From a virus (taxonomy: Duplodnaviria; Caudoviricetes): a stretch of 61,387 bases of DNA. This document shows positions 36,371 to 50,094 of the stretch, piece by piece. The stretch spans positions 1-61,387 of the IMG/VR virus record IMGVR_UViG_3300028103_000018; one strand, written 5' to 3'. The first letter of the stretch is position 1. Each line of letters begins with the position of its first letter. A program made the translations under genes and the position numbers. The notes under the pieces were generated by a model. That model made no database searches. It was not told where the DNA came from and saw only the letters and a list, made by a program, of their open reading frames with translations.

Positions 36371-36568
36371 TCAGTCCTCTTCGGCTTGTTGCACCAGTTT
36401 GTCCCAGATTTCCTGGAATTCCTGGCGTGCCTGCTGGAGTCCTGCGAGTTTGCCAACCATCATTTTGTATTCGGCGTAGTCACCGCACGAACCAGAGACG
36501 AGATGAGTGGCGTTTGTCTCTGAAAGCTCGTCAATCCTCTTGAAGAACCTAGATCGTAGGTCCAACAT
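36371..36568 (-). CDS. Small conserved portal-adjacent protein
   Basis: G...DYAEYK..VG...GL motif. Confidence 0.7.
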   Translation of the reverse strand: MLDLRSRFFKRIDELSETNATHLVSGSCGDYAEYKMMVGKLAGLQQARQEFQEIWDKLVQQAEED

Positions 36569-39122
36569 TGCCTCCCATGGAGTCCATCCTGGCTAAGATC
36601 TCCGCAATCTTGGCCTTTGCCATGTCGTTTTCGGTCTGAATCCGCTGCATTTCGGCCTGGATCCTGGCCTCAGACTCCTGGCGCTCCTTCTGGAGACGCT
36701 GAACGTCGAGTTGCAGCTTCTGATTCTCTAGCGCCAGTTCACTTTGGGTCTGCTGTGCGCGCTGTGCAGCGGCCTGCTGGGCAACCTGAGCCTGAGATTG
36801 AATCCTAGCGCTCTCCAATTGAGCCTTCGTCTGGTTCTTGACGATCTCAAGCTGGGCTTTCTGCTGCGATTCCTGCGCCTTCTGCTGCAACTCAGCCTGC
36901 TTGATCTGCAACTCAGCCTGCTGAAGCTGCATAACGGGGTCCTGAGCCTGCTGCTGGAACTGCTGTTGCTGCTGTTGAGCCTGCGCCTGCTGCAAGAGCA
37001 TCTGCGAAGCATCGGCAATAGCCTTGGAGAGATTGGATTCAATATCCCCAGGCATGGGTTCTCCCGGCGCGGGAAGCGGGATACCCAGCTTCTGCTCGAT
37101 CTGGGCGCGATATGCAAAGCCTACATGCTCTGCAATGTGCGCCATGAACGAAGCAAAGATAGCGTTTGCCTGAGGATTCTGTCCCAACTGCTGTTGGACG
37201 GAAGGATTCTGCACATACGCCATGTGCGCCTTGATGTGCGACTCGTGATCCTGCACCTGATAAGCCTTCGCAGGCTTCATGTTGGTGAGGTTCAGGTTCT
37301 CTGAGATTGGATCGAGGAGTGGGGCATCCATCTTCTCAGGGATAATCTTCTTCACATCCTTAACACCCAGGACTTCCAGCATCTTCCGATGCAACTCAGG
37401 CAGGTCGTAGAACTGCGGCGCTTGCGCGGCGAGTTGGATTGCAGCCTGATACTGCATCACCCGCTGCGACATCGTGGCCGCATTCGGATCAGAGACAGGG
37501 ATCACATCGATACGGTCGTCAAAGTCAGACCGCTTATCCCCATTCATCTTCCCGAAGTCAATCTTGTAGCGGCTGGAACCGCTGTCACGGATAACCCGAA
37601 CGAGAATAGCGAACTCGTCCTGGAGAGAAGCGTGAAGTCGAGCCTGAATGGCGCTCATGACCTTCAGCGCCCGCTCCATAATCGCCAGAGTTGTGCCTAC
37701 TGGCGCTTGCGAATTGACATCCCCAATCTCAGCGTCCGCGATAGAAGCGAGTCTGCGGCCATCCTCCACCACGTTTCCGAGGAGTTGGAACAGTGTCTGC
37801 GATGGCTCTTTATAAGGAAGAGGGTAAAGCGACCTCGCAATGTCCCCGTTAGCGACATCAACGTCTCTCCATTCACCCGGTTGGATCGGAGAATCGTCTC
37901 CGGCAACCCGCATCCCCTTTGCCTTCAGCCCGCCAGGAAGATTCGAGAGAGTGCCGGAATCAATCAACTGGCGCAGAATGGCAGTCGAAGCCTTCGCATT
38001 AGCGCCGATCAGATGGATCAACCCGTAGCCGTACGCCCCAATCCCAGGGACATAGTTGTAGGAGGAGAACCAGATCAGCTTGTTCTTCTTGGGATCTTCT
38101 TCGTCCCAGTTCTTGTAGACAGAAAGGACCTTGCCGGAAGACTTGTCTACAGTGACGACATAAGGTAATGCAATGCCAGTAGGGCTACCATCATCGTCAG
38201 TATGCTCCAGGCCAGGAATATCGAGATCGATATGAGCCTCAAGAAGAGTAACGGATTCCTCGTCGCCCTGCTTGTACTCGTAGCTAACCTTGTCAATCTT
38301 GTCCTGAAGCTGAGAGTTGGATTCGTAGTCAGGCTGGATGTCAACATCGCGATAGAACCCAGTGTACTGTAGCTTCTTGACTTCGTTGATGTTCTTTGTA
38401 AGGACATGGATATACCTGCTGGCCGTCTTGAGAGACGTAGCGCCATACGGCATAATGAAGTCCTGCGCCGGAACATACTTTACCTCAGGCATGTCCGTCA
38501 GGGGATCGAAACAGATCTTCTTGAAAGCAGACCCACACAGCGCCAGACCGAAGAGCATGCGCTCGGTCTCTGGGCGGTAGTCCTTCAACTCCTGGGTCAG
38601 CAGATAGTTGAGATCCGTCTGGATGCGCAGCGCCTGATCTTCCTTCTCGTCAGTGACCTCGCCAATGATCTGAGTCTTTACCGGGCCAGATGCCGGGAAG
38701 ATCTCCATGATGGCGTTGGACTGGAAGCGGACAGCCGCCTCCATGATCATGTTGTGGTACAGCCCACAAGCGCCAGCCCAAGGCTTGTTCCTGTCCTCGG
38801 TCTTTACCCCGAGGTAATCGAGGCCATCCTTATATGCACGCTCCCAGTCCTGCCGGGAGTTCAGGTCCTCTTGAAAGACATCCTGGATCTTGCGACCGAT
38901 AGAGGCAAGCTCAGAGTCGTCGATATGCTCTGCGAGGTTCGCGGAGTGGGGGAGGTCGCCCAGTGACTCTCCCCCTTCCTCCGGCGGTCCGAATTCGATG
39001 ATCATGCCACCGTCTTCGGTTTCGATAGACACAGCCTCTGGATTTAGAACACCGATTTCAATCTCGGCGCTCTCTTCAACTTCAGGACCGAAGTCCATTT
39101 CATCAAGAGGCTTGTCAATCAT
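36549..39122 (-). CDS. Portal protein (P22-like, long C-terminal coiled coil)
   Basis: H.ANLAE, SR.DWE, PW.GACG..H, LRQLID.GTLSNLP.G.K; Q-rich barrel. Confidence 0.9.
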   Translation of the reverse strand: MIDKPLDEMDFGPEVEESAEIEIGVLNPEAVSIETEDGGMIIEFGPPEEGGESLGDLPHSANLAEHIDDSELASIGRKIQDVFQEDLNSRQDWERAYKDGLDYLGVKTEDRNKPWAGACGLYHNMIMEAAVRFQSNAIMEIFPASGPVKTQIIGEVTDEKEDQALRIQTDLNYLLTQELKDYRPETERMLFGLALCGSAFKKICFDPLTDMPEVKYVPAQDFIMPYGATSLKTASRYIHVLTKNINEVKKLQYTGFYRDVDIQPDYESNSQLQDKIDKVSYEYKQGDEESVTLLEAHIDLDIPGLEHTDDDGSPTGIALPYVVTVDKSSGKVLSVYKNWDEEDPKKNKLIWFSSYNYVPGIGAYGYGLIHLIGANAKASTAILRQLIDSGTLSNLPGGLKAKGMRVAGDDSPIQPGEWRDVDVANGDIARSLYPLPYKEPSQTLFQLLGNVVEDGRRLASIADAEIGDVNSQAPVGTTLAIMERALKVMSAIQARLHASLQDEFAILVRVIRDSGSSRYKIDFGKMNGDKRSDFDDRIDVIPVSDPNAATMSQRVMQYQAAIQLAAQAPQFYDLPELHRKMLEVLGVKDVKKIIPEKMDAPLLDPISENLNLTNMKPAKAYQVQDHESHIKAHMAYVQNPSVQQQLGQNPQANAIFASFMAHIAEHVGFAYRAQIEQKLGIPLPAPGEPMPGDIESNLSKAIADASQMLLQQAQAQQQQQQFQQQAQDPVMQLQQAELQIKQAELQQKAQESQQKAQLEIVKNQTKAQLESARIQSQAQVAQQAAAQRAQQTQSELALENQKLQLDVQRLQKERQESEARIQAEMQRIQTENDMAKAKIAEILARMDSMGGNVGPTI

Positions 39123-39420: not shown

Positions 39421-41949
39421 TCAGTAGTAGTCTGCTTTCTTTCTCGAAATAGGCTCTTCATCTTCATCAGACTGCGTTGAGATAAAACCGCCCTGTCTAA
39501 ATCTCAACAGAGCCTGAGTAGAACTGTCAACAAGATCATCGTGGTCAGAGTTTGGAAAAGAAGCAAACTGCTCGATAACCTCTTCCGCCCATCGCAACGG
39601 AGGAGCATAGACAAAGCCAGAAGCAAATATGTCGCTTACGGCATTAACACGAGCAATCTTGTCATTCCCTCGTGATGGAGTGTAATCCTGTATCGGTATG
39701 CCCATGCGGCGCATTTCAAAGACAAGGGGAGCGCCAGCAGCTTTTGCTTCGATGATGCAAGAGTCTGGCTTCCAATACCTGTACTCCTCCAGTGCCTTCT
39801 GCTTCAACTCTGGGAACTCTAGCTTGTCCTGGAATGCGTTCAGCAGGATGATGTTCGTCCGCTTCTTCCCGTCAGAGTCGCTGTCGTAGAAGACGCCCCA
39901 GGTCGTGCAGGCAGAGTAGTCCGAGCGGGTTCCCTTGGTCAGCGCCGTGTCCCAGCTTTGGATGATGTATTCGCAGTTTGGCGGGTCGTCCCTGTCCCAG
40001 ATCTTCCACCAGTCCCTCTTTATAAGCGCACCTTCTTCTGAGGTGGGATTCTGCTGGTACTGGGCAGACCACTTTGAAACAGGAAGTTCGGCACGGATCT
40101 TGGAGAGTTCGTCCAGAGACCAGAATTCAGGCCAGAGCGGCTGGCCGGAGGGCATGATGGCCGGGAACTCGATGACTTCCCACTCGTCCACGCCATCTCT
40201 CTGCGCTGCTGCTTTCAATATTTGCCCACAGAGATCACGCTTGCTCCAGCGCGTCATGACGACCACGATGGCACCTCCAGGCTGAAGACGCTGCCTGGGG
40301 CCTGATGTGTACCACTCATACACACCATCGTAGATTGCTGGATTTGTTGCAGCCAGAGTAGCTTCCTGTTCGGAGTTGTGGGTAACGACATACCCCCTGC
40401 CAGCCAGGAAGAGTCCATCTGGCCTATTCACGGTGATGCACTGAACGTCTCCCCGCAGGTCGGTCTTCTCGATCTTATAGGACCTCTGCCTCTTGTCGGT
40501 TGGAGTCCTGGTTCTCTCTCTCTTTCGCGGGAGCCTACAGCACCCGAACAACTTGAAGTTGACCCTATAGACAGTGGACTCGCTATACCCCTTGGCTTCG
40601 TATTGCTTGACCGACGCCTTGACCCCAAGGCTATGCACGAGTTCCCTCAGGCCAGAAGAGAGGAGGCGGTTCGTGTTGTTGAAGGAACACTGCCCGTCGA
40701 TGGTCACATTGCCATCAGAATCCATCAACCCCTGAATCAAGGAGAGGCGCTGCTCAACGGAAGATGTGAAATATTCCTCTGGGATGTGCTTGTTGTTGAG
40801 AACCCCGATGTCCCTCAACTTCACCATCAGCTTTAGAGCGCCAAAGGAGTACGGGTCAGCGTGATCTGTAGTCTCATACCCCGCAAGTTCAAACTGAGAA
40901 CGGATGAACTGAATATCGATGGTGTCGGCGCTTATCCTGCCCAAACTGGAAGTGCCGTTGCCAAGCCAGTAGCCGAGGACGTATGGGTCAATCGGCAGGT
41001 CCTTGTGCGGGTATTGAACCTCGTGGTGCCGAGGAAGGCATGGCCTGTTTGGCTTCGACCATTCCGCAAGCTCCCTGGCTGTCGCGTTCTTGACCTTGGC
41101 CTTCTTGATATTCGTGTCGGACATGTAGGGCCAGAGATGCCCGCCATCACACATGATGGATTCCCCATCATCCGTCGTCAGGCGATAGAGTTCCCTGTCC
41201 TTCCAGACCTCAGACTTCGCCAGCACCTCAACCGGAAGACCGTCAGGGCCGTACACAAAGTCGCCAACACGAAGCTCCTCGACAGTCTTGAAGCCATTTG
41301 GTGTTGGTATGCATTCAGTGGTAAGGAGTGCATGAGGGTCATCAATAATTAAAAGGTCACTCCCTTTACCACTTACAGATCCCCCGACGCCAATGGCAAA
41401 GTACTCACCCTGCTTACTGGTGTTCCACCTTCCTGCTGCTTTGGAATCTGATGACAAGGCGACTCCAGGGAATACTGTTTGGTAATGACTGCTACCCACT
41501 AGATTCCTGACCTTTCTACCGAACCCAACGGCCAATTCGGCTGTGTGAGAGGTTTGGATGATCTTTCGATCAGGATACTTCCCCAAGTACCATGCAGGCA
41601 AAAGATATGAACTGAATTCGCTTTTTGAGTGACGAGGCGCCATGTTGATGATGAGACGCTTACATTTGCCTTCAGCCACCCTCTCGAATGCGTCTGCCAT
41701 GATCGCATGGTGCCGACCAGGAATGAACGCAGGCCACATCTCCTTGACGAAGTCTATGAACTTGGTCTGGCACGCCTGGACCTTCAACTGCTTCTCATAC
41801 GCTTCCAGCAGGCTCATCAACTCCACCTGCTCGTGGTACGGCAGCTTCTTCGCGTTCTGGATGATGGTGTCGATCTGCTGCGGAGTGTACTTCCCCGCAA
41901 GGACATTCCTTATATTCACACCACCATCATCTCCCACCCAGTGCCACAA
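39421..41949 (-). CDS. terL: Terminase large subunit with intein
   Basis: MAPRHSKS (Walker A), LLIIDDPH (Walker B), QSWDTA and HDDLVDS nuclease motifs; likely start GTG 41919. Confidence 0.95.
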   Translation of the reverse strand: MWHWVGDDGGVNIRNVLAGKYTPQQIDTIIQNAKKLPYHEQVELMSLLEAYEKQLKVQACQTKFIDFVKEMWPAFIPGRHHAIMADAFERVAEGKCKRLIINMAPRHSKSEFSSYLLPAWYLGKYPDRKIIQTSHTAELAVGFGRKVRNLVGSSHYQTVFPGVALSSDSKAAGRWNTSKQGEYFAIGVGGSVSGKGSDLLIIDDPHALLTTECIPTPNGFKTVEELRVGDFVYGPDGLPVEVLAKSEVWKDRELYRLTTDDGESIMCDGGHLWPYMSDTNIKKAKVKNATARELAEWSKPNRPCLPRHHEVQYPHKDLPIDPYVLGYWLGNGTSSLGRISADTIDIQFIRSQFELAGYETTDHADPYSFGALKLMVKLRDIGVLNNKHIPEEYFTSSVEQRLSLIQGLMDSDGNVTIDGQCSFNNTNRLLSSGLRELVHSLGVKASVKQYEAKGYSESTVYRVNFKLFGCCRLPRKRERTRTPTDKRQRSYKIEKTDLRGDVQCITVNRPDGLFLAGRGYVVTHNSEQEATLAATNPAIYDGVYEWYTSGPRQRLQPGGAIVVVMTRWSKRDLCGQILKAAAQRDGVDEWEVIEFPAIMPSGQPLWPEFWSLDELSKIRAELPVSKWSAQYQQNPTSEEGALIKRDWWKIWDRDDPPNCEYIIQSWDTALTKGTRSDYSACTTWGVFYDSDSDGKKRTNIILLNAFQDKLEFPELKQKALEEYRYWKPDSCIIEAKAAGAPLVFEMRRMGIPIQDYTPSRGNDKIARVNAVSDIFASGFVYAPPLRWAEEVIEQFASFPNSDHDDLVDSSTQALLRFRQGGFISTQSDEDEEPISRKKADYY
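40375..41331 (-). mobile_element. Class 3 intein (319 aa) with LAGLIDADG domain, inserted after Walker B
   Basis: Begins ALLTT (Ala1), block B GGHLW, block F VQCITV, ends VTHN/S; LGYWLGNG and GLMDSDG motifs. Confidence 0.9.
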
Positions 41950-41980
41950 CGGTAGAATCTATACGAGGGGAAAAGGCTGA

Positions 41981-42265
41981 ATGGAAACTTCTTGGATCTC
42001 CATTGGGATCACCGCTTTGGTTCTGATCGTGCAACTCACGAACAGATACAACAAAGACGGAGCGGCTTCCGAGATCAACATCCGAAGCCTTGAGAATTCA
42101 ATCACCCAAGAGATGGCGAAGATCCAGGTCCAGATCGCCAAGCTACCCGACGACCTGATGACAAGAGTCGGGCAGATCTACGTTACCAGCGACAGGTACA
42201 TCGCTGAACTCGAAGGCATTCGCGCTAGGCTCCGCAACGTAGAGCAGTCGATCAACAATCAATAG
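41981..42265 (+). CDS. Membrane-anchored coiled-coil protein (holin/spanin-like?)
   Basis: Single N-terminal TM helix then heptads. Confidence 0.55.
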   Translation: METSWISIGITALVLIVQLTNRYNKDGAASEINIRSLENSITQEMAKIQVQIAKLPDDLMTRVGQIYVTSDRYIAELEGIRARLRNVEQSINNQ

Positions 42266-42271
42266 CGCCAG

Positions 42272-42305
42272 AAAAAAGGGCTTGCCCAATTCGTTGACAA
42301 GCCCT
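42272..42305 (-). terminator. Rho-independent terminator
   Basis: AGGGCTTG/CAAGCCCT stem followed by a T-run on the minus strand. Confidence 0.7.
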
Positions 42306-42356
42306 GTACACCAAACCGATAGGAGACTTTCGGAGCGCCCAGCCGTCAGACTGGAC
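42272..42356 (-). ncRNA. Candidate ~85-nt sRNA with anti-SD loop
   Basis: Extended -10 TGA-TAGGAT (42371-42363), two hairpins, loop AAGUCUCCUA, terminator. Confidence 0.5.
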
Positions 42357-42374
42357 AGACCCATCCTATCACAC

Positions 42375-42635
42375 TCATCTGCTTCCATAAACCCTGATCT
42401 CGTAGACCCCGTCCACGATCTTCATACCGTACTCTGAATCCTCTCCAGGCTCCACCAAGCAAGACTCAACCCAACTCATAACCTCAGTTCTTTCGTACCG
42501 GACAACCCTACCCTTGTACTTGAGATACGAAGGCCCGTAGCCTATACTGCGCCAGTGCTTCAGGCATGGGATTGAGATCCTTGTGTACTCAGACAACTCC
42601 TGTTCTGTCATGAGCATAGTGGCGTCTGGATTCAT
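42375..42635 (-). CDS. AlpA/excisionase-like HTH protein
   Basis: LMTEQELSEY..IS...LK.WR..G.GP.Y.K....VRY...V..W. Confidence 0.8.
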   Translation of the reverse strand: MNPDATMLMTEQELSEYTRISIPCLKHWRSIGYGPSYLKYKGRVVRYERTEVMSWVESCLVEPGEDSEYGMKIVDGVYEIRVYGSR

Positions 42636-42647
42636 AGACCGAGAATA

Positions 42648-42908
42648 TCAATACTCGATCTTGAAAGTCCTTCTGCCGTCCTTAAACCCCACATAGTTGG
42701 ACAGGAACGGCTTTCCTCCATTGAAGAGCTTGACGGTGTCAGCGAGGTGTTCCACCCACTCCTCTCCTTCCTTTACCTTCTGCTCTTCCCTGGCGATCTC
42801 TTCTGCCAGCGCCGAATCAATCTGAGTACTCGTCAGCTTGCCCATGCTCTTCGCCTTGCGCCGTAGAACTCTTTCGGCTTCTTGTTGAATCAGCTTGTCT
42901 CTTTCCAC
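42648..42908 (-). CDS. Hypothetical protein
   Basis: GTG start after SD GAGGAG; helical composition. Confidence 0.55.
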   Translation of the reverse strand: MERDKLIQQEAERVLRRKAKSMGKLTSTQIDSALAEEIAREEQKVKEGEEWVEHLADTVKLFNGGKPFLSNYVGFKDGRRTFKIEY

Positions 42909-43209
42909 CTTTGCTCCTCTTTGTGATCTTCCATCCCCCAGGCGGCATGCCGTACATGTACTCGGCGCACATGACGAGGTGGTCTCCCCAAGGCGAGGCG
43001 CAAGTCTGTCGCATAGCGGCACGCCCTTCCTTCAGGAACAGTTCCCACTTCGTCGGCTCCTTGCGCATGATGATCTTGCGCTTGAGTTCTGGGAACTCCC
43101 CGATAATCTCAGCCGCATCCCGATAGGGATTAGCGCCGGAATACAGGTCCTCTTGGTTCGCAATGAACTCCGACAGGCTCAGGGAGTTCAGCCACTCCTG
43201 GTATAGCAT
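42817..43209 (-). CDS. Hypothetical protein
   Basis: TACACT 6 nt upstream of ATG 43209. Confidence 0.5.
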   Translation of the reverse strand: MLYQEWLNSLSLSEFIANQEDLYSGANPYRDAAEIIGEFPELKRKIIMRKEPTKWELFLKEGRAAMRQTCASPWGDHLVMCAEYMYGMPPGGWKITKRSKGGKRQADSTRSRKSSTAQGEEHGQADEYSD

Positions 43210-43340
43210 GAACACAGTGTACTACTGTGGTTCATGCCGTGCAATAGGGGCTACTCGGAGGCGGATGAGATACCTCGGGGAAACCCCTATTGCACAATGG
43301 TTACCCCAGTCAAGGGTGAGCCTTGATTGTATCATTTTTA

Positions 43341-43368
43341 TTGACCAGAATCCCAACGCTGGTAGAAT
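43341..43368 (+). promoter_or_regulatory. Sigma70-type promoter facing the non-coding region
   Basis: TTGACC-N16-TAGAAT with TGn extension and an AT-rich upstream tract. Confidence 0.7.
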
Positions 43369-43374
43369 GGAATT

Positions 43375-43990
43375 GAGAGTCTGCTCGAAACTGCGGCTTG
43401 CCGCTGAGAACAAAAGGCAAACTTTTCATGCCGGTTACAACCAGTCCCGGTGTTGGTGCGAGGGGTTGCGGTGAGAGATGAGACCGATCCGCGTAGTAAA
43501 CTCATCAGCCAGCTCGGTTCAGACGCCCCGCAGTGAATCTGGGTGAGCCAGTAAGGGGTCTAACGGTCCACCGAAAGGTGTCCCAGGCGCAAGAGTCTGG
43601 ATGAGGTTGCTACGGAGGCATGGCCCCGATAGATTGTCCCGCTTCGTGGACTTGAGATAAGGGCGCAGGTGAAACTCCAGATCCGTAGCCGAGAGGACAG
43701 GTTGGTGCCACACCAGATAAGGCACCTGTGAAGTAGCGACGGTGGCTCCATACCGGATAGCCTAGTTCACAACGAGAGGGAGGTTACCTCTCGTGTGTCC
43801 ACGCTCTGGTTCACCACCCGGATAGAGGGGTCGGGTTGGTGCTTGAGAAAAAGGGGGGTGGGTCCCCGGGAGGGGGGAAGTCCCCCTCCCGTTATTGTCG
43901 CGCTCATGATCAAGCAGTCCGGCCCTCGTCCCTGAGGGTCGAGACAAGCGCGACGAATAACCAAGCGGGAAAGAGGCAAGCTGAACCTCA
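43375..43990 (+). ncRNA. Candidate large structured ncRNA (~600 nt)
   Basis: No credible ORF; about ten helices including long-range ones; GAAA and CUUG tetraloops; G-U pairs favour the + strand. Confidence 0.6.
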
Positions 43991-44007
43991 AAGACCCTCA
44001 AAGAAAA

Positions 44008-44085
44008 AACACTGTACGGATGATCCGCGCTAACGGAAACCGGGCTACAGGATCACTCTCAATCAACACTGTACGGATGATCCGC
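44008..44085. repeat. Two identical 21-bp direct repeats AACACTGTACGGATGATCCGC
   Basis: At 44008-44028 and 44065-44085; internal dyad CGGAT-G-ATCCG. Confidence 0.9.
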
Positions 44086-44195
44086 CCTGGCTCTAACCGT
44101 GCTACCGAATGCGAAAACCAAGTACATGCACTCGGGATCTAAGGCGAGTACCGTCCATTCTCCTAGATCAATACTTCTGGCGCTAAACTATACCT

Positions 44196-44474
44196 GTGCA
44201 AGAGACACAAGAGAAGAGAAAGCATCTCCTGCTAGACACAGAGGTTGCAGAGATCCTGGGCGCTTCTATATCCAGCGTGAGGAAGTGGAGACTCCAAGGG
44301 AGAGGGCCACGCTTTGTTCGTCTTGGTGGCGCTGTAAGGTACAGAGAATCCGATGTACTTGAGTATGTCGAATCTGGTAGACTGTATACTGAAACAGGCA
44401 TAGGCCGCACAAGGAGCAACCGTGGACACCTCGTTGAACAAAGACGCAATCGAGAGTCTTCTGAGAGAGAATGA
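44196..44474 (+). CDS. AlpA/excisionase-like HTH protein
   Basis: LLDTEVAEILG.S..SVRKWR..G.GP.FVRLGGAVRYR. Confidence 0.85.
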   Translation: MQETQEKRKHLLLDTEVAEILGASISSVRKWRLQGRGPRFVRLGGAVRYRESDVLEYVESGRLYTETGIGRTRSNRGHLVEQRRNRESSERE

Positions 44475-44697
44475 AGTAGCCAAGATCCTAAACATATCTG
44501 TTGTAAAGGTCAGGCTACTCAGAAGGTTTGGTGGAGGTCCAGAGTTCATCAGGATCGGTAAGGCAGTACGCTACCGAAGGGATGACATCCGGCGCTTCAT
44601 CGACAGTGCCACCTCATTCGAGACCATCTCCGGCAAGGTTGCTCCCAAGCGTGAGCCTATTACCCTGAGCGAAATCTTCTCCAAGGAAAGCGAGTAA
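44422..44697 (+). CDS. AlpA/excisionase-like HTH protein
   Basis: LLRENEVAKIL.IS......R..GGGPEFIRIGKAVRYRRDDI. Confidence 0.85.
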   Translation: MDTSLNKDAIESLLRENEVAKILNISVVKVRLLRRFGGGPEFIRIGKAVRYRRDDIRRFIDSATSFETISGKVAPKREPITLSEIFSKESE

Positions 44698-44701
44698 CGA
44701 C

Positions 44702-44902
44702 ATGGAAATTGGTCTGGCTAAGATCTCTGAGGCTGCTGCCTTCTTGAATCTCTCGAAGGCGATGGTGAACAAGATGCTGCGTGACGGGCGCATCCCGTCC
44801 AAGCGGTTTGGTAAGGTGTACCGGATCCCGTGGTCCTGGCTGCACGGTGAAGTGAACGGCACTCCGGTTGCCAAGCCCAATACGGACGAAGCTGCCGCCT
44901 AA
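44702..44902 (+). CDS. Excisionase-family HTH protein
   Basis: ISEAAAFL.LSK..V..M..DG.IPS.RFG..YRIP. Confidence 0.85.
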   Translation: MEIGLAKISEAAAFLNLSKAMVNKMLRDGRIPSKRFGKVYRIPWSWLHGEVNGTPVAKPNTDEAAA

Positions 44903-45032: not shown

Positions 45033-45108
45033 TGGCGCTCCCGGCAGGATTCAAACCTGCGACCTACTTCTTAGGAGGAAGTCGTTCTATTCGCTGAACT
45101 ACGGGAGC
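45033..45108 (-). tRNA. tRNA-Arg(CCU), CCA encoded
   Basis: 76-nt cloverleaf: acceptor GCTCCCG/CGGGAGC, anticodon arm ACTTC-CTCCTAA-GAAGT, T arm GCAGG-TTTGAAT-CCTGC. Confidence 0.92.
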
Positions 45109-45114
45109 TTGGCA

Positions 45115-45936
45115 CTACAGAATATCCGCAACTTCCTCGACGATGTGCCGGAACTGAACCCAGCCCTGGAAGTTCCCCTTCTGCACATCCTTGCTCGTCA
45201 GGGGACGCGCCACATGCTCGAAGGGAGACAGGTGCGGCGGCATCGCGTTCTTCAGCTTCTTGAAGAGGTCCATGTCCTTCTGTACGCTGTATGTGCCGTC
45301 GTGATTCAGGTAGGACACACGGGCGCACCGGGCAACAGACATCGCCATACAGGTGAACTTCGGCACGGAGGTCAGTTCTTCGGGCTGAATGTAGGGCAGG
45401 TGGAAGTCCCCTTCGGCCAGATGCAACGGCACGCTAGCGTCAATCGCATCGCGCATGACCCGCGCCAGTTGTCTGATCTCCGGCTGGGCATCGTGATTCA
45501 GGCGCTGCGAGAAGAAGTTCTCCCACTCCGTCGCGGAGATGATGGCCTTGTGCCAGAGAAAAGGCTCCAGCAGTCTGTTCACAACTTCCTTATGAATCCC
45601 GGCGCTTGCCATAATCCTGGCAGAGTACACTGCATTGGCGGCAGCAGATTTCCAGGCATTCTCTGCCGCCCACTTCTGCTGCACGGACACCTGCGGCCCT
45701 GACTGCATCCCAGGTTGGTTAGCGCCGAGGTAGATAGGGATGTACGGATCCTCCTCTACTTCTTGCAGGCGCTTGTGAATTGGGATGGCGCGAGAGGAAG
45801 CGGAGTTCCTGGAGAAGTCACGGTGTGTGTTGACTTGCGCCAGGATGAACCTTGGGAACTGGCACTCCATTGTGATAAGCCTAACGCCCTTAGGCGATAC
45901 AGAGTCTGCTACTACCTTTGCAGAGATTTGCTTCAA
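45115..45936 (-). CDS. thyX: FAD-dependent thymidylate synthase (ThyX/Thy1)
   Basis: NTHR.FSRNSASSRAIP, NRLLEPF, SVARCARVSY, HLSPFEHVA; TTG start after AAGGAG. Confidence 0.9.
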   Translation of the reverse strand: MKQISAKVVADSVSPKGVRLITMECQFPRFILAQVNTHRDFSRNSASSRAIPIHKRLQEVEEDPYIPIYLGANQPGMQSGPQVSVQQKWAAENAWKSAAANAVYSARIMASAGIHKEVVNRLLEPFLWHKAIISATEWENFFSQRLNHDAQPEIRQLARVMRDAIDASVPLHLAEGDFHLPYIQPEELTSVPKFTCMAMSVARCARVSYLNHDGTYSVQKDMDLFKKLKNAMPPHLSPFEHVARPLTSKDVQKGNFQGWVQFRHIVEEVADIL

Positions 45937-46166
45937 GTGTTTGATTCTCCTTGTGTTTTGAAAGCGCCTGATATACATCCTAGCACTCTTATGGCATGTT
46001 CGGCTTCGACTGCGGTGGTGTCTGCGTAGGTTTCGGGGCTGAAATTATCGCCCGGCATGATGAAGTAGTCCTGAAGTTCGTCGTTGTGAATGACGTACAA
46101 ATTCTCTCCCCCCTCAAAGATCCACGACCTTATCTCGTCAAACTCTTTCCCTCTAAACGCAGGCAC
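45933..46166 (-). CDS. Paralogue array member 9
   Basis: IRSWIF...TTAVEAEHAIRVL. Confidence 0.65.
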   Translation of the reverse strand: MPAFRGKEFDEIRSWIFEGGENLYVIHNDELQDYFIMPGDNFSPETYADTTAVEAEHAIRVLGCISGAFKTQGESNT

Positions 46167-49836: not shown

Positions 49837-50028
49837 ATGAGACTAGAAAAAGCGGAAAAGATCAAACAACTGGCCCTCGAAGTCCACAAGACAGTGGCAA
49901 GGATGTCTGCACTCGAAGGCGCAGAATGCAGGAGTAAGGCGTCCGCAGAGAGGGCAGAAGAGCGCCTCATGGAGCTAGAGCGCAAGCTGAATGAAGCTAT
50001 GCGCCAACTACACTCTATGACGTACTAG
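49837..50028 (+). CDS. Small coiled-coil protein
   Basis: SD AGGAG. Confidence 0.65.
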   Translation: MRLEKAEKIKQLALEVHKTVARMSALEGAECRSKASAERAEERLMELERKLNEAMRQLHSMTY

Positions 50029-50091
50029 TCGAAACGCGGGCTATGCCCGCTTCTACGGGAATTAGCCTACCCGTACTGATGAGACAGGCTA
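50028..50091 (+). ncRNA. Type II hammerhead ribozyme 1 with pseudoknot
   Basis: GTC-GAAA-stem III-TTC, stem I TACGGG/CCCGTA, CTGATGA, GAC; loop TAGCCT pairs with 3' AGGCTA; predicted cut after 50053. Confidence 0.85.
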
Positions 50092-50094
50092 GAG

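What the first reader, a model, noticed from the sequence alone, without database searches (positions are those of the whole stretch)
43341..43990. Candidate novel large structured ncRNA (~600 nt) with its own strong promoter
This is the longest stretch without a credible gene, and it starts just after TTGACC-N16-TAGAAT. Helices seen: GCGG-CUUG-CCGC (43393), CACC-GAAA-GGUG (43569), CCAGGC/GUCUGG (43583), long-range GCUACGGA/UCCGUAGC (43609/43682), GGUGCC/GGCACC (43704/43721), ACGAGAGG/CCUCUCGU (43772/43787), CGGGAGGGGG/CCCCCUCCCG (43867/43882), and UUAUU-GUCGCGCU/AGCGCGAC-G-AAUAA (43892/43947) enclosing GGCCCUC/GAGGGUC. Stable tetraloops and G-U wobbles all favour the + strand. It is comparable in scale to phage GOLLD/ROOL RNAs, but I recognise no known family. 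A structured replication origin or primer RNA is the alternative.
Basis: partly seen in the sequence, partly recalled or inferred. Interest (0 to 1): 0.88.

Follow-up and report, generated by a model that had tools for sequence, protein, structure and literature searches.

The report
New large structured phage RNA
A freshwater phage carries, next to its DNA-packaging genes, a self-contained gene for a roughly 455-base, intricately folded, non-coding RNA that matches no known RNA family; its job is unknown.

Summary
Window 43375-43831 (+) is a conserved non-coding RNA of about 455 nt behind a conserved sigma-70-type promoter (43341-43368). No Rfam family matches it or its relatives. I found it on 12 contigs in four lineages that are 65-77% identical, plus one distant copy (L097) in an unrelated phage.

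- **Structure:** 93 curated pairs are 98.1% paired. 35 pairs changed on both sides, against 1-6 in slid controls. They include a pseudoknot, which is also compensated in L097.
- **Strand:** 87 G-U cells point to the + strand.
- **Coding:** no reading frame is kept across lineages.
- **Expression:** contigs from four river metatranscriptome runs cover 43384-43827.

- The conserved unit ends at 43831.
- The three 3' helices (43867-43961) are window-specific and terminator-like.
- CCAGGC/GUCUGG is replaced by a long-range helix.
- The core folds no better than shuffles (z = -0.05).

The RNA is dispensable cargo. The closest relative (80-98% protein identity) has a DUF559 endonuclease-like gene in the same slot. 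In 5 of 5 lineages the RNA faces away from the terminase genes.

Function is unknown. My best guess is a stable, trans-acting folded RNA acting as a scaffold or decoy.

The parts
43341..43368 (+). Sigma-70-type promoter: TTGACC, 16 nt, TG-n-TAGAAT
   Evidence: 10 of 12 matches, and the only such site in 43150-44300; the TGnTAnAAT element is invariant in position in 5 of 5 aligned lineages.
43375..43831 (+). Conserved core of the non-coding RNA (about 455 nt)
   Evidence: homologous on 12 contigs in four lineages, 65-77% identical between lineages. L070 is 94% identical over 43359-43831 only; covariation. RNA-library contigs cover 43384-43827.
43378..43423 (+). 5' stem-loop: H1 (43378-85 with 43416-23) enclosing H2 (43391-96 with 43401-06), which has an invariant CUUG loop
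   Evidence: H1 has 6 of 7 pairs, and H2 3 of 6 pairs, changed on both sides. Coordinates.
43426..43623 (+). Central domain closed by H3 (43426-32 with 43617-23) and H4 (43438-42 with 43605-09). It holds the long arm H5 (43447-43517) and the branched arm H6 (43518-24 with 43595-601; inner helix GCCCC 43525 with GGGGU 43555; hairpins at 43539-51 and 43569-80).
   Evidence: pairs changed on both sides are H3 4 of 7, H4 2 of 5, H5 7 of 22, H6 5 of 7; the inner H6 helix and both hairpins re-form in each lineage with different letters.
43610..43688 (+). Pseudoknot: CUACGGA (43610-16) pairs with UCCGUAG (43682-88), crossing H3. The variable hairpin H8 (43623-64) lies between the two strands.
   Evidence: 5 of 7 pairs changed on both sides, 100% of cells paired. 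L097 has a different, perfectly complementary 7-mer pair in the same register.
43668..43815 (+). 3' domain, the most sequence-conserved part: H9 (GGUGAA 43668 with UUCACC 43810), H10 hairpin (43704-26), H11 (43738-49 with 43755-806), H12 hairpin (43777-93)
   Evidence: H10, H11 and H12 each have one pair changed on both sides. H9 never varies, so it is predicted only.
43708..43825 (+). Three copies of a loop motif CCA-y-ACC-r-GAUA, at 43708, 43748 and 43814
   Evidence: all three are present in every lineage. The central letters of the second and third copies change together (CCGG, CGGG, AGGG).
43867..43891 (+). G+C-rich hairpin followed by UUAUUG: terminator-like and specific to this phage
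   Evidence: Not conserved. Other lineages have unrelated stable hairpins within 40-110 nt of the core.
43892..43961 (+).
   Evidence: it folds in the window. No counterpart appears in relatives.
43283..44175 (.). Variable cargo slot: the whole stretch is replaced in the closest relatives
   Evidence: L003 and L004 match only 43200-43282 and from about 44170 on; their slot holds a DUF559 endonuclease-like ORF.
44008..44110 (+). Two 46-nt direct repeats (80% alike), each with an internal palindrome, inside the cargo slot and upstream of the HTH gene
   Evidence: family D1. Not followed up.
39421..43215 (-). Divergent neighbours: small ORFs (132 aa at 42817-43215; HTH_17 at 42375-42635) and the terminase large subunit with an intein (39421-41949)
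   Evidence: Searches show the same layout in relatives.
44196..44697 (+). Downstream neighbours: two HTH_17 (excisionase/AlpA-like) genes
   Evidence: HTH_17 genes also lie downstream in L068 and L009.

Best explanation
Window 43375-43831 (+) encodes a stand-alone, stable, highly folded non-coding RNA of a previously undescribed family.

**Shown**
- It has its own conserved host-type promoter.
- It has about 17 helices and at least one pseudoknot, kept by compensatory changes.
- It is present in RNA libraries from river water.
- It sits in a replaceable cargo slot, so it is an accessory gene, not part of the phage's core machinery.

**Inferred**
- It acts in trans as a folded particle, a scaffold or decoy. 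It would work through its conserved unpaired stretches and three repeated CCA-y-ACC-r-GAUA loops, binding a protein or RNA partner or other copies of itself.
- It gives the phage a conditional advantage during infection or lysogeny, plausibly in phage-host or phage-phage conflict.
For: - **Homologues:** 12 contigs in four lineages, 65-77% identical between lineages.
- **Covariation:** 93 pairs on 9 distinct rows, with 98.1% of cells paired.
  - 35 pairs changed on both sides. The shuffle mean is 19, and 0 of 500 shuffles reach 35. Slid controls give 1-6.
  - Covariation score is 0.384, against 0.07-0.09 when slid.
  - The pseudoknot has 5 of 7 pairs compensated.
- **Strand:** 87 of 826 cells are G-U, so pairing falls to 87.5% on the other strand.
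- **Non-coding:** no frame is open in all lineages.
- **Promoter:** conserved in 5 of 5 lineages.
- **Expression:** in 4 of 4 metatranscriptome runs laid, from 4 coded studies, separate contigs cover 43384-43827. Their mean word depth is 25.7-390.6, against 2.1-39.1 for contigs on the flanking genes in the same runs. The tool warns that contig depth is a poor measure of expression.
- **Accessory:** model R1 is absent from G001 and G002, and G001 shares most proteins at 80-98% identity. Their slot holds a DUF559 ORF.
- **Distant copy L097:** three sequence blocks at the right spacing, found by two independent patterns. By my estimate the joint chance expectation is about 6e-4. A re-compensated pseudoknot sits in register, and the terminase context is the same in a phage with no detectable protein similarity.
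- **No known family, no reverse transcriptase:**
Against: - The core folds no better than shuffles (z = -0.05; 45 of 100 shuffles fold as well).
- Only four close lineages and one distant copy are known. They are related, so the shuffle control is not a probability, and no R-scape test could be run.
- H9 and much of the 3' domain never vary, so those helices are predictions only.
- Model R1 does not score L097, with or without filters, and blastn does not link it to the family. Its homology rests on blocks, the pseudoknot and context.
- The RNA evidence comes from assembled contigs. They show no strand, no true ends and no reliable level, and DNA carry-over cannot be excluded for presence alone.
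- No partner, target or phenotype is known. The scaffold/decoy mechanism is inference from anatomy and from the accessory position.
- The constant position beside the terminase genes is not explained by this reading.
Confidence: 0.55

Rival explanations
1. It is a new ribozyme: a compact pseudoknotted catalytic core with peripheral arms, processing itself or another RNA.
For: - The pseudoknot strand lies directly between the 3' strands of H4 and H3 with no linker. This recalls, from memory, the P7/P3 arrangement of group I introns.
- Unpaired stretches are invariant even in the distant copy L097: GAGGAC, GGUGGCUCCAUAC, GGUUCACCACC, CGCAGU.
- The same phage carries a type II hammerhead.
- RNA contigs of two runs end at 43738 and 43739. 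This is a weak hint of a processing site, and one of them has adapter sequence as a loose end.
Against: - No match to any ribozyme family in Rfam at E up to 10.
- The topology differs from group I: H6 lies inside H4.
- There are no flanking exons, and it has its own promoter.
- No joints or circular forms appear in the contigs (table 5).
Confidence: 0.15
2. It works with the DNA-packaging module: an accessory RNA of the terminase/portal machinery, loosely like phi29 pRNA, or a regulator of the divergent late operon.
For: - In 5 of 5 lineages with enough flank, the RNA lies within about 1.5 kb of the terminase large-subunit gene and is transcribed away from it.
- This includes L097, whose proteins show no tblastn similarity to the window's and where the direct neighbour is an Sf6-type small terminase.
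Against: - G001 has terminase and portal 89-95% identical to the window's but lacks the RNA. The RNA therefore cannot be required for packaging.
- No match to the pRNA family.
- Four of the five lineages are related phages, so their shared gene order is inherited. Only L097 is independent.
Confidence: 0.12
3. It is a cis-acting leader (antitermination, attenuation or ligand sensing) that controls the downstream HTH_17 genes.
For: [quoted passage not shown]
- HTH_17 genes follow it in L068 and L009 as well.
- Stable hairpins follow the core in every lineage and could act as regulated terminators.
Against: - Relatives G001 and G002 keep the same HTH gene (82-86% identity) without the RNA.
- L097 has different downstream ORFs.
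- About 365 nt, including two hairpins and two repeats, separate the core from the gene.
- A 455-nt pseudoknotted fold is far larger than known leaders.
Confidence: 0.1
4. It is a DNA-level element (replication origin, primer-RNA site, cos/pac site) or chance structure, not a functional RNA.
For:
- It lies next to the packaging genes, where cos/pac sites often sit.
- The folding energy of the core is no better than shuffles.
Against: - Compensatory changes, with 87 G-U cells valid on one strand only.
- It is absent from the closest relative, which must still replicate and package.
- The promoter is conserved.
- It is present in RNA libraries.
Confidence: 0.03

Closest known systems
ROOL RNA (Rfam RF03087)
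   Same: A large phage or prophage RNA of several hundred nt, with many helices and pseudoknots, no known protein partner, and high abundance reported in one strain. These properties come from passages of PMC12286853 read.
   Different: - No match to the ROOL model.
- About 455 nt, against 659 nt for the ROOL solved by cryo-EM.
- Not near tRNA islands: one tRNA 1.2 kb away in the window, and none in 10 other loci.
- Lies beside the terminase genes instead.
- Self-assembly is untested.
GOLLD RNA (Rfam RF01998)
   Same: A large ornate RNA of phages and prophages, first seen in lake metagenomes, with unknown function (PMC12286853 passages). The present family also comes from lake and river samples.
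   Different: - No match to the GOLLD model.
- About half the size; many GOLLD members exceed 800 nt.
- Different fold.
- No tRNA arrays nearby.
phi29 packaging RNA (pRNA, Rfam RF00044)
   Same: A phage-encoded structured RNA whose gene lies beside the packaging genes. That it forms rings by loop-loop contacts is recalled, not from a call.
   Different: - pRNA is about 170 nt (recalled) and essential for packaging.
- This RNA is about 455 nt, matches no pRNA model, and is dispensable.
Group I intron core (Rfam RF00028)
   Same: One strand of a pseudoknot helix abuts the 3' strand of an enclosing helix, followed by a hairpin and then the other pseudoknot strand. This resembles P7-P3-P8-P7' (recalled).
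   Different: - No model match.
- It interrupts no gene and has its own promoter.
- H6 is nested inside H4, unlike P4-P6.
- No splice-site features were identified.
Bacterial RNase P RNA (Rfam RF00010/RF00011)
   Same: A similar size class, pseudoknotted, abundant and stable. A few short conserved words looked similar to me from memory.
   Different: No RNase P model matches at E up to 10 in any of the six sequences tested. The helix order does not correspond.

Membership tests
ROOL (RF03087) | Match to the family covariance model | tested here: not met
   cmscan at the gathering threshold on the whole window. cmscan at E up to 10 on 43100-44300, on four relatives' loci and on L097. No ROOL hit in any.
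ROOL / GOLLD | Often encoded near tRNA islands in phages and prophages (PMC12286853) | tested here: not met
   The window has one tRNA-Arg, 1.2 kb away on the other strand. There are 0 tRNAs in 10 of 10 other loci scanned, including the 53-kb record G003.
ROOL / GOLLD | RNA-only homo-oligomeric cage | not testable with these tools
   Needs native gels, mass photometry or cryo-EM of the transcript.
GOLLD (RF01998) | Match to the family covariance model | tested here: not met
   no hit.
phi29 pRNA (RF00044) | Model match, and indispensable for DNA packaging | tested here: not met
   No model hit. The closest relative G001 lacks the RNA while keeping terminase and portal at 89-95% identity. G001 is only 78% complete, but the slot itself is present and holds other cargo.
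Group I intron (RF00028) | Model match; inserted in a host gene with exons on both sides | tested here: not met
   No hit. The element starts at its own conserved promoter in an intergenic cargo slot.
RNase P RNA / tmRNA | Model match (Rfam); tmRNA tag and tRNA-like ends (ARAGORN) | tested here: not met
   No Rfam hit. ARAGORN finds only tRNA-Arg in the window.
Retron, DRT, DGR or group II intron RNAs | A reverse transcriptase gene in the same element | tested here: not met
   PF00078 has 0 matches in the complete 61-kb record. The control genomes ring in 3.
Cis-regulatory leader (riboswitch or antiterminator) | Constant linkage to the regulated downstream gene | tested here: not met
   The same HTH gene occurs without the RNA in G001 and G002. 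The RNA occurs with other downstream ORFs in L097.
New family proposed here | Conserved fold with compensatory changes, one coding-free strand, conserved promoter | tested here: met

The most novel reading that the evidence does not exclude
This is the founding member of a new class of large phage RNA machines tied to the head of the packaging operon. It could be a new ribozyme, or an RNA that self-assembles or captures a host factor, such as a tRNA or an RNA-binding defence protein. Phages would swap it in and out of a conflict-gene slot. Its survival in two phage groups with no detectable protein similarity, at the same position and with a re-compensated pseudoknot, would then reflect horizontal spread of a functional RNA module.
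Probability: 0.2. Interest if true: 0.95.

Novelty: new variant of a known kind. Interest (0 to 1): 0.8.

Why it matters
New classes of bacterial or phage RNAs above 400 nt with complex, conserved folds are rare. Past examples (RNase P, group I and II introns, OLE, GOLLD, ROOL) turned out to be ribozymes or unexpected assemblies.

This one offers:
- a defined promoter and sharp boundaries;
- a testable secondary structure with a pseudoknot;
- evidence of expression in nature;
- natural "knock-out" relatives that differ mainly by this cassette.

That makes its function directly approachable. It also shows that accessory slots in phage genomes can carry RNA cargo as well as protein genes. Folding-energy screens would have missed it.

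Tried and rejected
- **Folding energy.** The z-scores do not separate strands, and z is nil for the core. I rejected this as a criterion.
- **Known-family searches.** Rfam finds nothing at either threshold.
- **Cultured phages.** blastn of the window RNA, the L068 copy and the L097 copy against 50,697 phage records gives no match.
- **Two cultured relatives by portal.** Model R1 with filters off on 25.8 kb of phage 023Pt_psg01 and 22.1 kb of DSL-LC04 gives nothing above noise. Only parts of those genomes were searched.
- **Genome contigs pattern scan.** 9 stretches, and none scored by R1. No prophage copy was found, and the host remains unknown.
- **Chance hits set aside after R1, blastn or reading the sequence:**
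  - 43 of 45 stretches;
  - 12 of 21, including seven near-identical contigs (L058 group) that share the 18-mer only;
  - 57 of 62;
  - L156, which lies in coding sequence.
- **Tertiary partners of the repeated loops**. There are too few lineages to tell. A possible second pseudoknot (alignment A3 columns 304-307 with 440-443) is unverified.
- **Resemblances recalled from memory.** These were CsrA sites, T-loops and RNase P conserved regions. No test supported them, and no RNase P model matches.
- **The roughly 580 nt after the DUF559 gene in L004.** z = -0.75 and no promoter-like site. What it is remains open.
- **Parts of the laid stretch without RNA-contig cover**. These are 43305-43383 (the promoter region) and most of 43858-44375.
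- **Supplements.** Those of PMC10690425 (IMG/VR candidate RNAs, 29-151 nt) are closed. A fragment of this RNA could be listed there.
- **In print.** My searches and passages of PMC12286853, PMC10690425 and bioRxiv 10.64898/2026.10.21.760802 show no description of this family.

Full report
**Setting.** The window is a complete 61,387-bp virus record. It is a temperate-looking tailed phage.
- It carries an integrase (1196-2050), Erf, dUTPase, ThyX and a primase-helicase, plus a long minus-strand structural block.
- That block ends with the portal (36549-39122), a terminase large subunit that contains an intein (39421-41949) and a few small ORFs up to 43215.
- By portal protein, its nearest cultured relatives are pelagiphages HTVC023P/027P, phage 023Pt_psg01, DSL-LC04 and Planktothrix phage Pag-Yong1, at 33-44% identity.
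- The finding lies where the minus-strand packaging block meets a short plus-strand unit of two HTH_17 genes (44196-44697).

**Observation.** The promoter TTGACC-16-TG-n-TAGAAT (43341-43368) is the only sigma-70-like site in 43150-44300. Folding energy says little:
- 43371-43990 gives z = -2.08 on the + strand and -2.82 on the - strand.
- The conserved core alone gives z = -0.05, with 45 of 100 shuffles folding as well.

It is outweighed by the comparative and expression evidence below.

**Relatives.** Flanking proteins led to five related viral loci. Two of them (L005, L006) carry a homologue of 43362-43831. Pattern scans added more:
- Metagenome copies L070 (94% identical), L057, and a near-identical group: L053-L056, L060, L066, L068.
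- Viral-collection copies of that group: L083 = L056, L085 = L068, and L084, which contains L053.

A covariance model of the 3' domain (R1) scored 12 of 79 sources at E below 1e-43, including the window. Nothing else scored better than E = 0.24. Together these are 12 contigs in four lineages, 65-77% identical between lineages. Identity with L070 stops at 43831. Each lineage has its own stable hairpins after the core, and the window's is terminator-like.

**Structure.** I curated 93 pairs in 17 helix segments from RNAalifold and by eye, then counted them on alignment A3, which has 9 distinct rows.
- 98.1% of cells are paired.
- 35 pairs changed on both sides. The shuffle mean is 19, and 0 of 500 shuffles reach 35. 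Slid controls give 1-6.
- The covariation score is 0.384, against 0.07-0.09 when slid.

The architecture in window coordinates is:
- a 5' stem-loop, H1/H2, with an invariant CUUG loop;
- a central domain closed by H3 and H4, with a long arm H5 and a branched arm H6;
- a pseudoknot, CUACGGA 43610 with UCCGUAG 43682 (5 of 7 pairs compensated), whose 5' strand lies directly between the 3' strands of H4 and H3;
- a variable hairpin H8;
- a highly conserved 3' domain, H9-H12.

Folding each lineage separately shows that the inner H6 helix (GCC-N-C with G-N-GGU, N compensated), two H6 hairpins and H8 re-form with different letters. H9 never varies and is only predicted. A loop motif, CCA-y-ACC-r-GAUA, occurs three times. 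The central letters of copies 2 and 3 change together between lineages. I could not find a partner for them.

**Strand, coding and promoter.** 87 of 826 cells are G-U, so only 87.5% would pair on the other strand. Every frame has stops in most lineages, and none is open in all. The extended -10 element is invariant in position in 5 of 5 lineages.

**Expression.** Six river metatranscriptome runs hold part of 42600-44800. I laid four, from four coded studies. Each has a separate contig on the RNA:

| Run | Contig | Mean word depth |
|---|---|---|
| X18 | 43384-43827 | 25.7 |
| X16 | 43391-43739 | 238.8 |
| X15 | 43404-43738 | 390.6 |
| X19 | 43419-43639 | 113.5 |

Contigs on the neighbouring genes in the same runs have depths of 2.1-39.1. 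The tool warns that contig depth is flat and a poor measure, and that contigs show neither strand nor true ends. I take this as evidence that the RNA exists and is probably abundant, not as a measurement.

**Accessory nature and context.**
- G001, the record behind L004, shares most proteins with the window at 80-98% identity. It has no R1 match. Between the same flanks (43282 and about 44170) it holds a DUF559 endonuclease-like ORF and about 580 nt of unassigned sequence. G002 is the same.
- G003 carries the RNA but is a more distant phage (40-85% protein identity).
- The RNA is therefore dispensable cargo in a variable slot.
- In all 5 lineages with enough flank, the RNA is transcribed away from small ORFs and the terminase large subunit.
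- tRNAs are not a constant neighbour: 0 in 10 other loci.
- The phage has no reverse transcriptase.

**A distant copy.** Two gapped patterns that share one block both hit L097.
- By my estimate, the joint chance expectation for the three blocks at these spacings in the collection is about 6e-4.
- L097 has TGAGGTCGC, GAGGAC, GGTGGCTCCATAC, CAGGTTCACCACC, CGCAGT and GTAAGAG in the family's order.
- In the exact register of the family's pseudoknot it has a different, perfectly complementary pair, CCAUGUU 6113 with AACAUGG 6225.
- It lacks H10 and probably H5.
- Its proteins show no tblastn similarity to the window's, yet the layout is the same: portal, terminase large, Sf6-type terminase small, then the RNA on the other strand.
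- Against this, R1 and blastn do not detect it, and its fold has local alternatives.

I rate it a probable homologue.

**Comparison with known families.** No Rfam family reaches E = 10 on the RNA core in six sequences. The only hit in the window stretch is a 15-bit match to the 3' hairpin.
- ROOL and GOLLD are the nearest in kind: large, ornate, phage-borne, function unknown, and one ROOL is very abundant (PMC12286853 passages). They differ in model, size, fold and tRNA context.
- phi29 pRNA shares only the packaging-gene neighbourhood.
- The group I intron core shares a local pseudoknot arrangement (recalled) but not the topology or the genomic setting.
- A 2023 IMG/VR screen reported candidates of 29-151 nt only (PMC10690425 passages). 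Its supplements are closed, so a fragment of this RNA could be listed there.

**Mechanism.** The following are shown: a promoter-driven, conserved, pseudoknotted, non-coding + strand RNA that is present in RNA libraries, dispensable, and sited in a cargo slot beside the terminase genes. I infer, at about 0.55 for the whole statement, that it acts in trans as a stable folded particle. It would work through its invariant unpaired stretches and repeated loops, as a scaffold or decoy or by self-association, and would give a conditional advantage. The alternative cargo in the same slot, a nuclease-like gene, fits a conflict role. The rivals are:
- a new ribozyme (0.15);
- an accessory RNA or regulator of the packaging or late module (0.12);
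- a cis leader for the HTH genes (0.10);
- a DNA-level element (0.03).

**Limits.**
- There are few lineages, and no R-scape test could be run.
- The RNA data are contigs only.
- The host is unknown.

Noticed in passing
window 50027-50093 (+): Type II hammerhead ribozyme match just above the Rfam gathering score (38.8 against 37 bits, E = 2.3e-4). It lies in an intergenic gap between plus-strand ORFs.
   Followed up: no
window 39421-41949 (-): The terminase large subunit (842 aa) carries a homing-endonuclease/LAGLIDADG insert at residues 389-464, that is, an intein. Relatives have terminases of 470-675 aa.
   Followed up: partly
window 44008-44053 and 44065-44110 (+): Two 46-nt direct repeats (80% alike), each starting with AACACTGTACGGATGATCCGC, which holds a palindrome. 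They lie inside the cargo slot and upstream of the HTH_17 gene, and may be operators.
   Followed up: no
window 43239-43295: Inverted repeat with 23-nt arms (83% complementary) between the first late-operon ORF and the RNA promoter. The left boundary of the cargo slot (43282/43283) falls inside its right arm.
   Followed up: partly
L004 2923-3980 (same slot in the RNA-less relatives G001/G002): A DUF559 / restriction-endonuclease-like ORF (159 aa) followed by about 580 nt with no convincing ORF or Pfam hit. It could be other non-coding cargo.
   Followed up: partly
window 44403-44414: In all four metatranscriptome runs a contig begins here and runs beyond 44800. In X16 adapter sequence lies just before 44405. 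This may be a transcript boundary inside the overlap of the two HTH_17 ORFs, or the end of the minus-strand tRNA/thyX transcript.
   Followed up: no
window 45033-45108 (-): A single tRNA-Arg (CCU) directly downstream of thyX (45115-45978). G001 and G002 have a tRNA at the matching place.
   Followed up: no
L058, L061, L062, L065, L067, L071, L073 (metagenome): Seven near-identical contigs share the 18-mer AGAGGACAGGTTGGTACCA with the RNA but nothing else, and R1 does not score them. This is probably coincidence. The surrounding sequence is conserved among them.
   Followed up: partly
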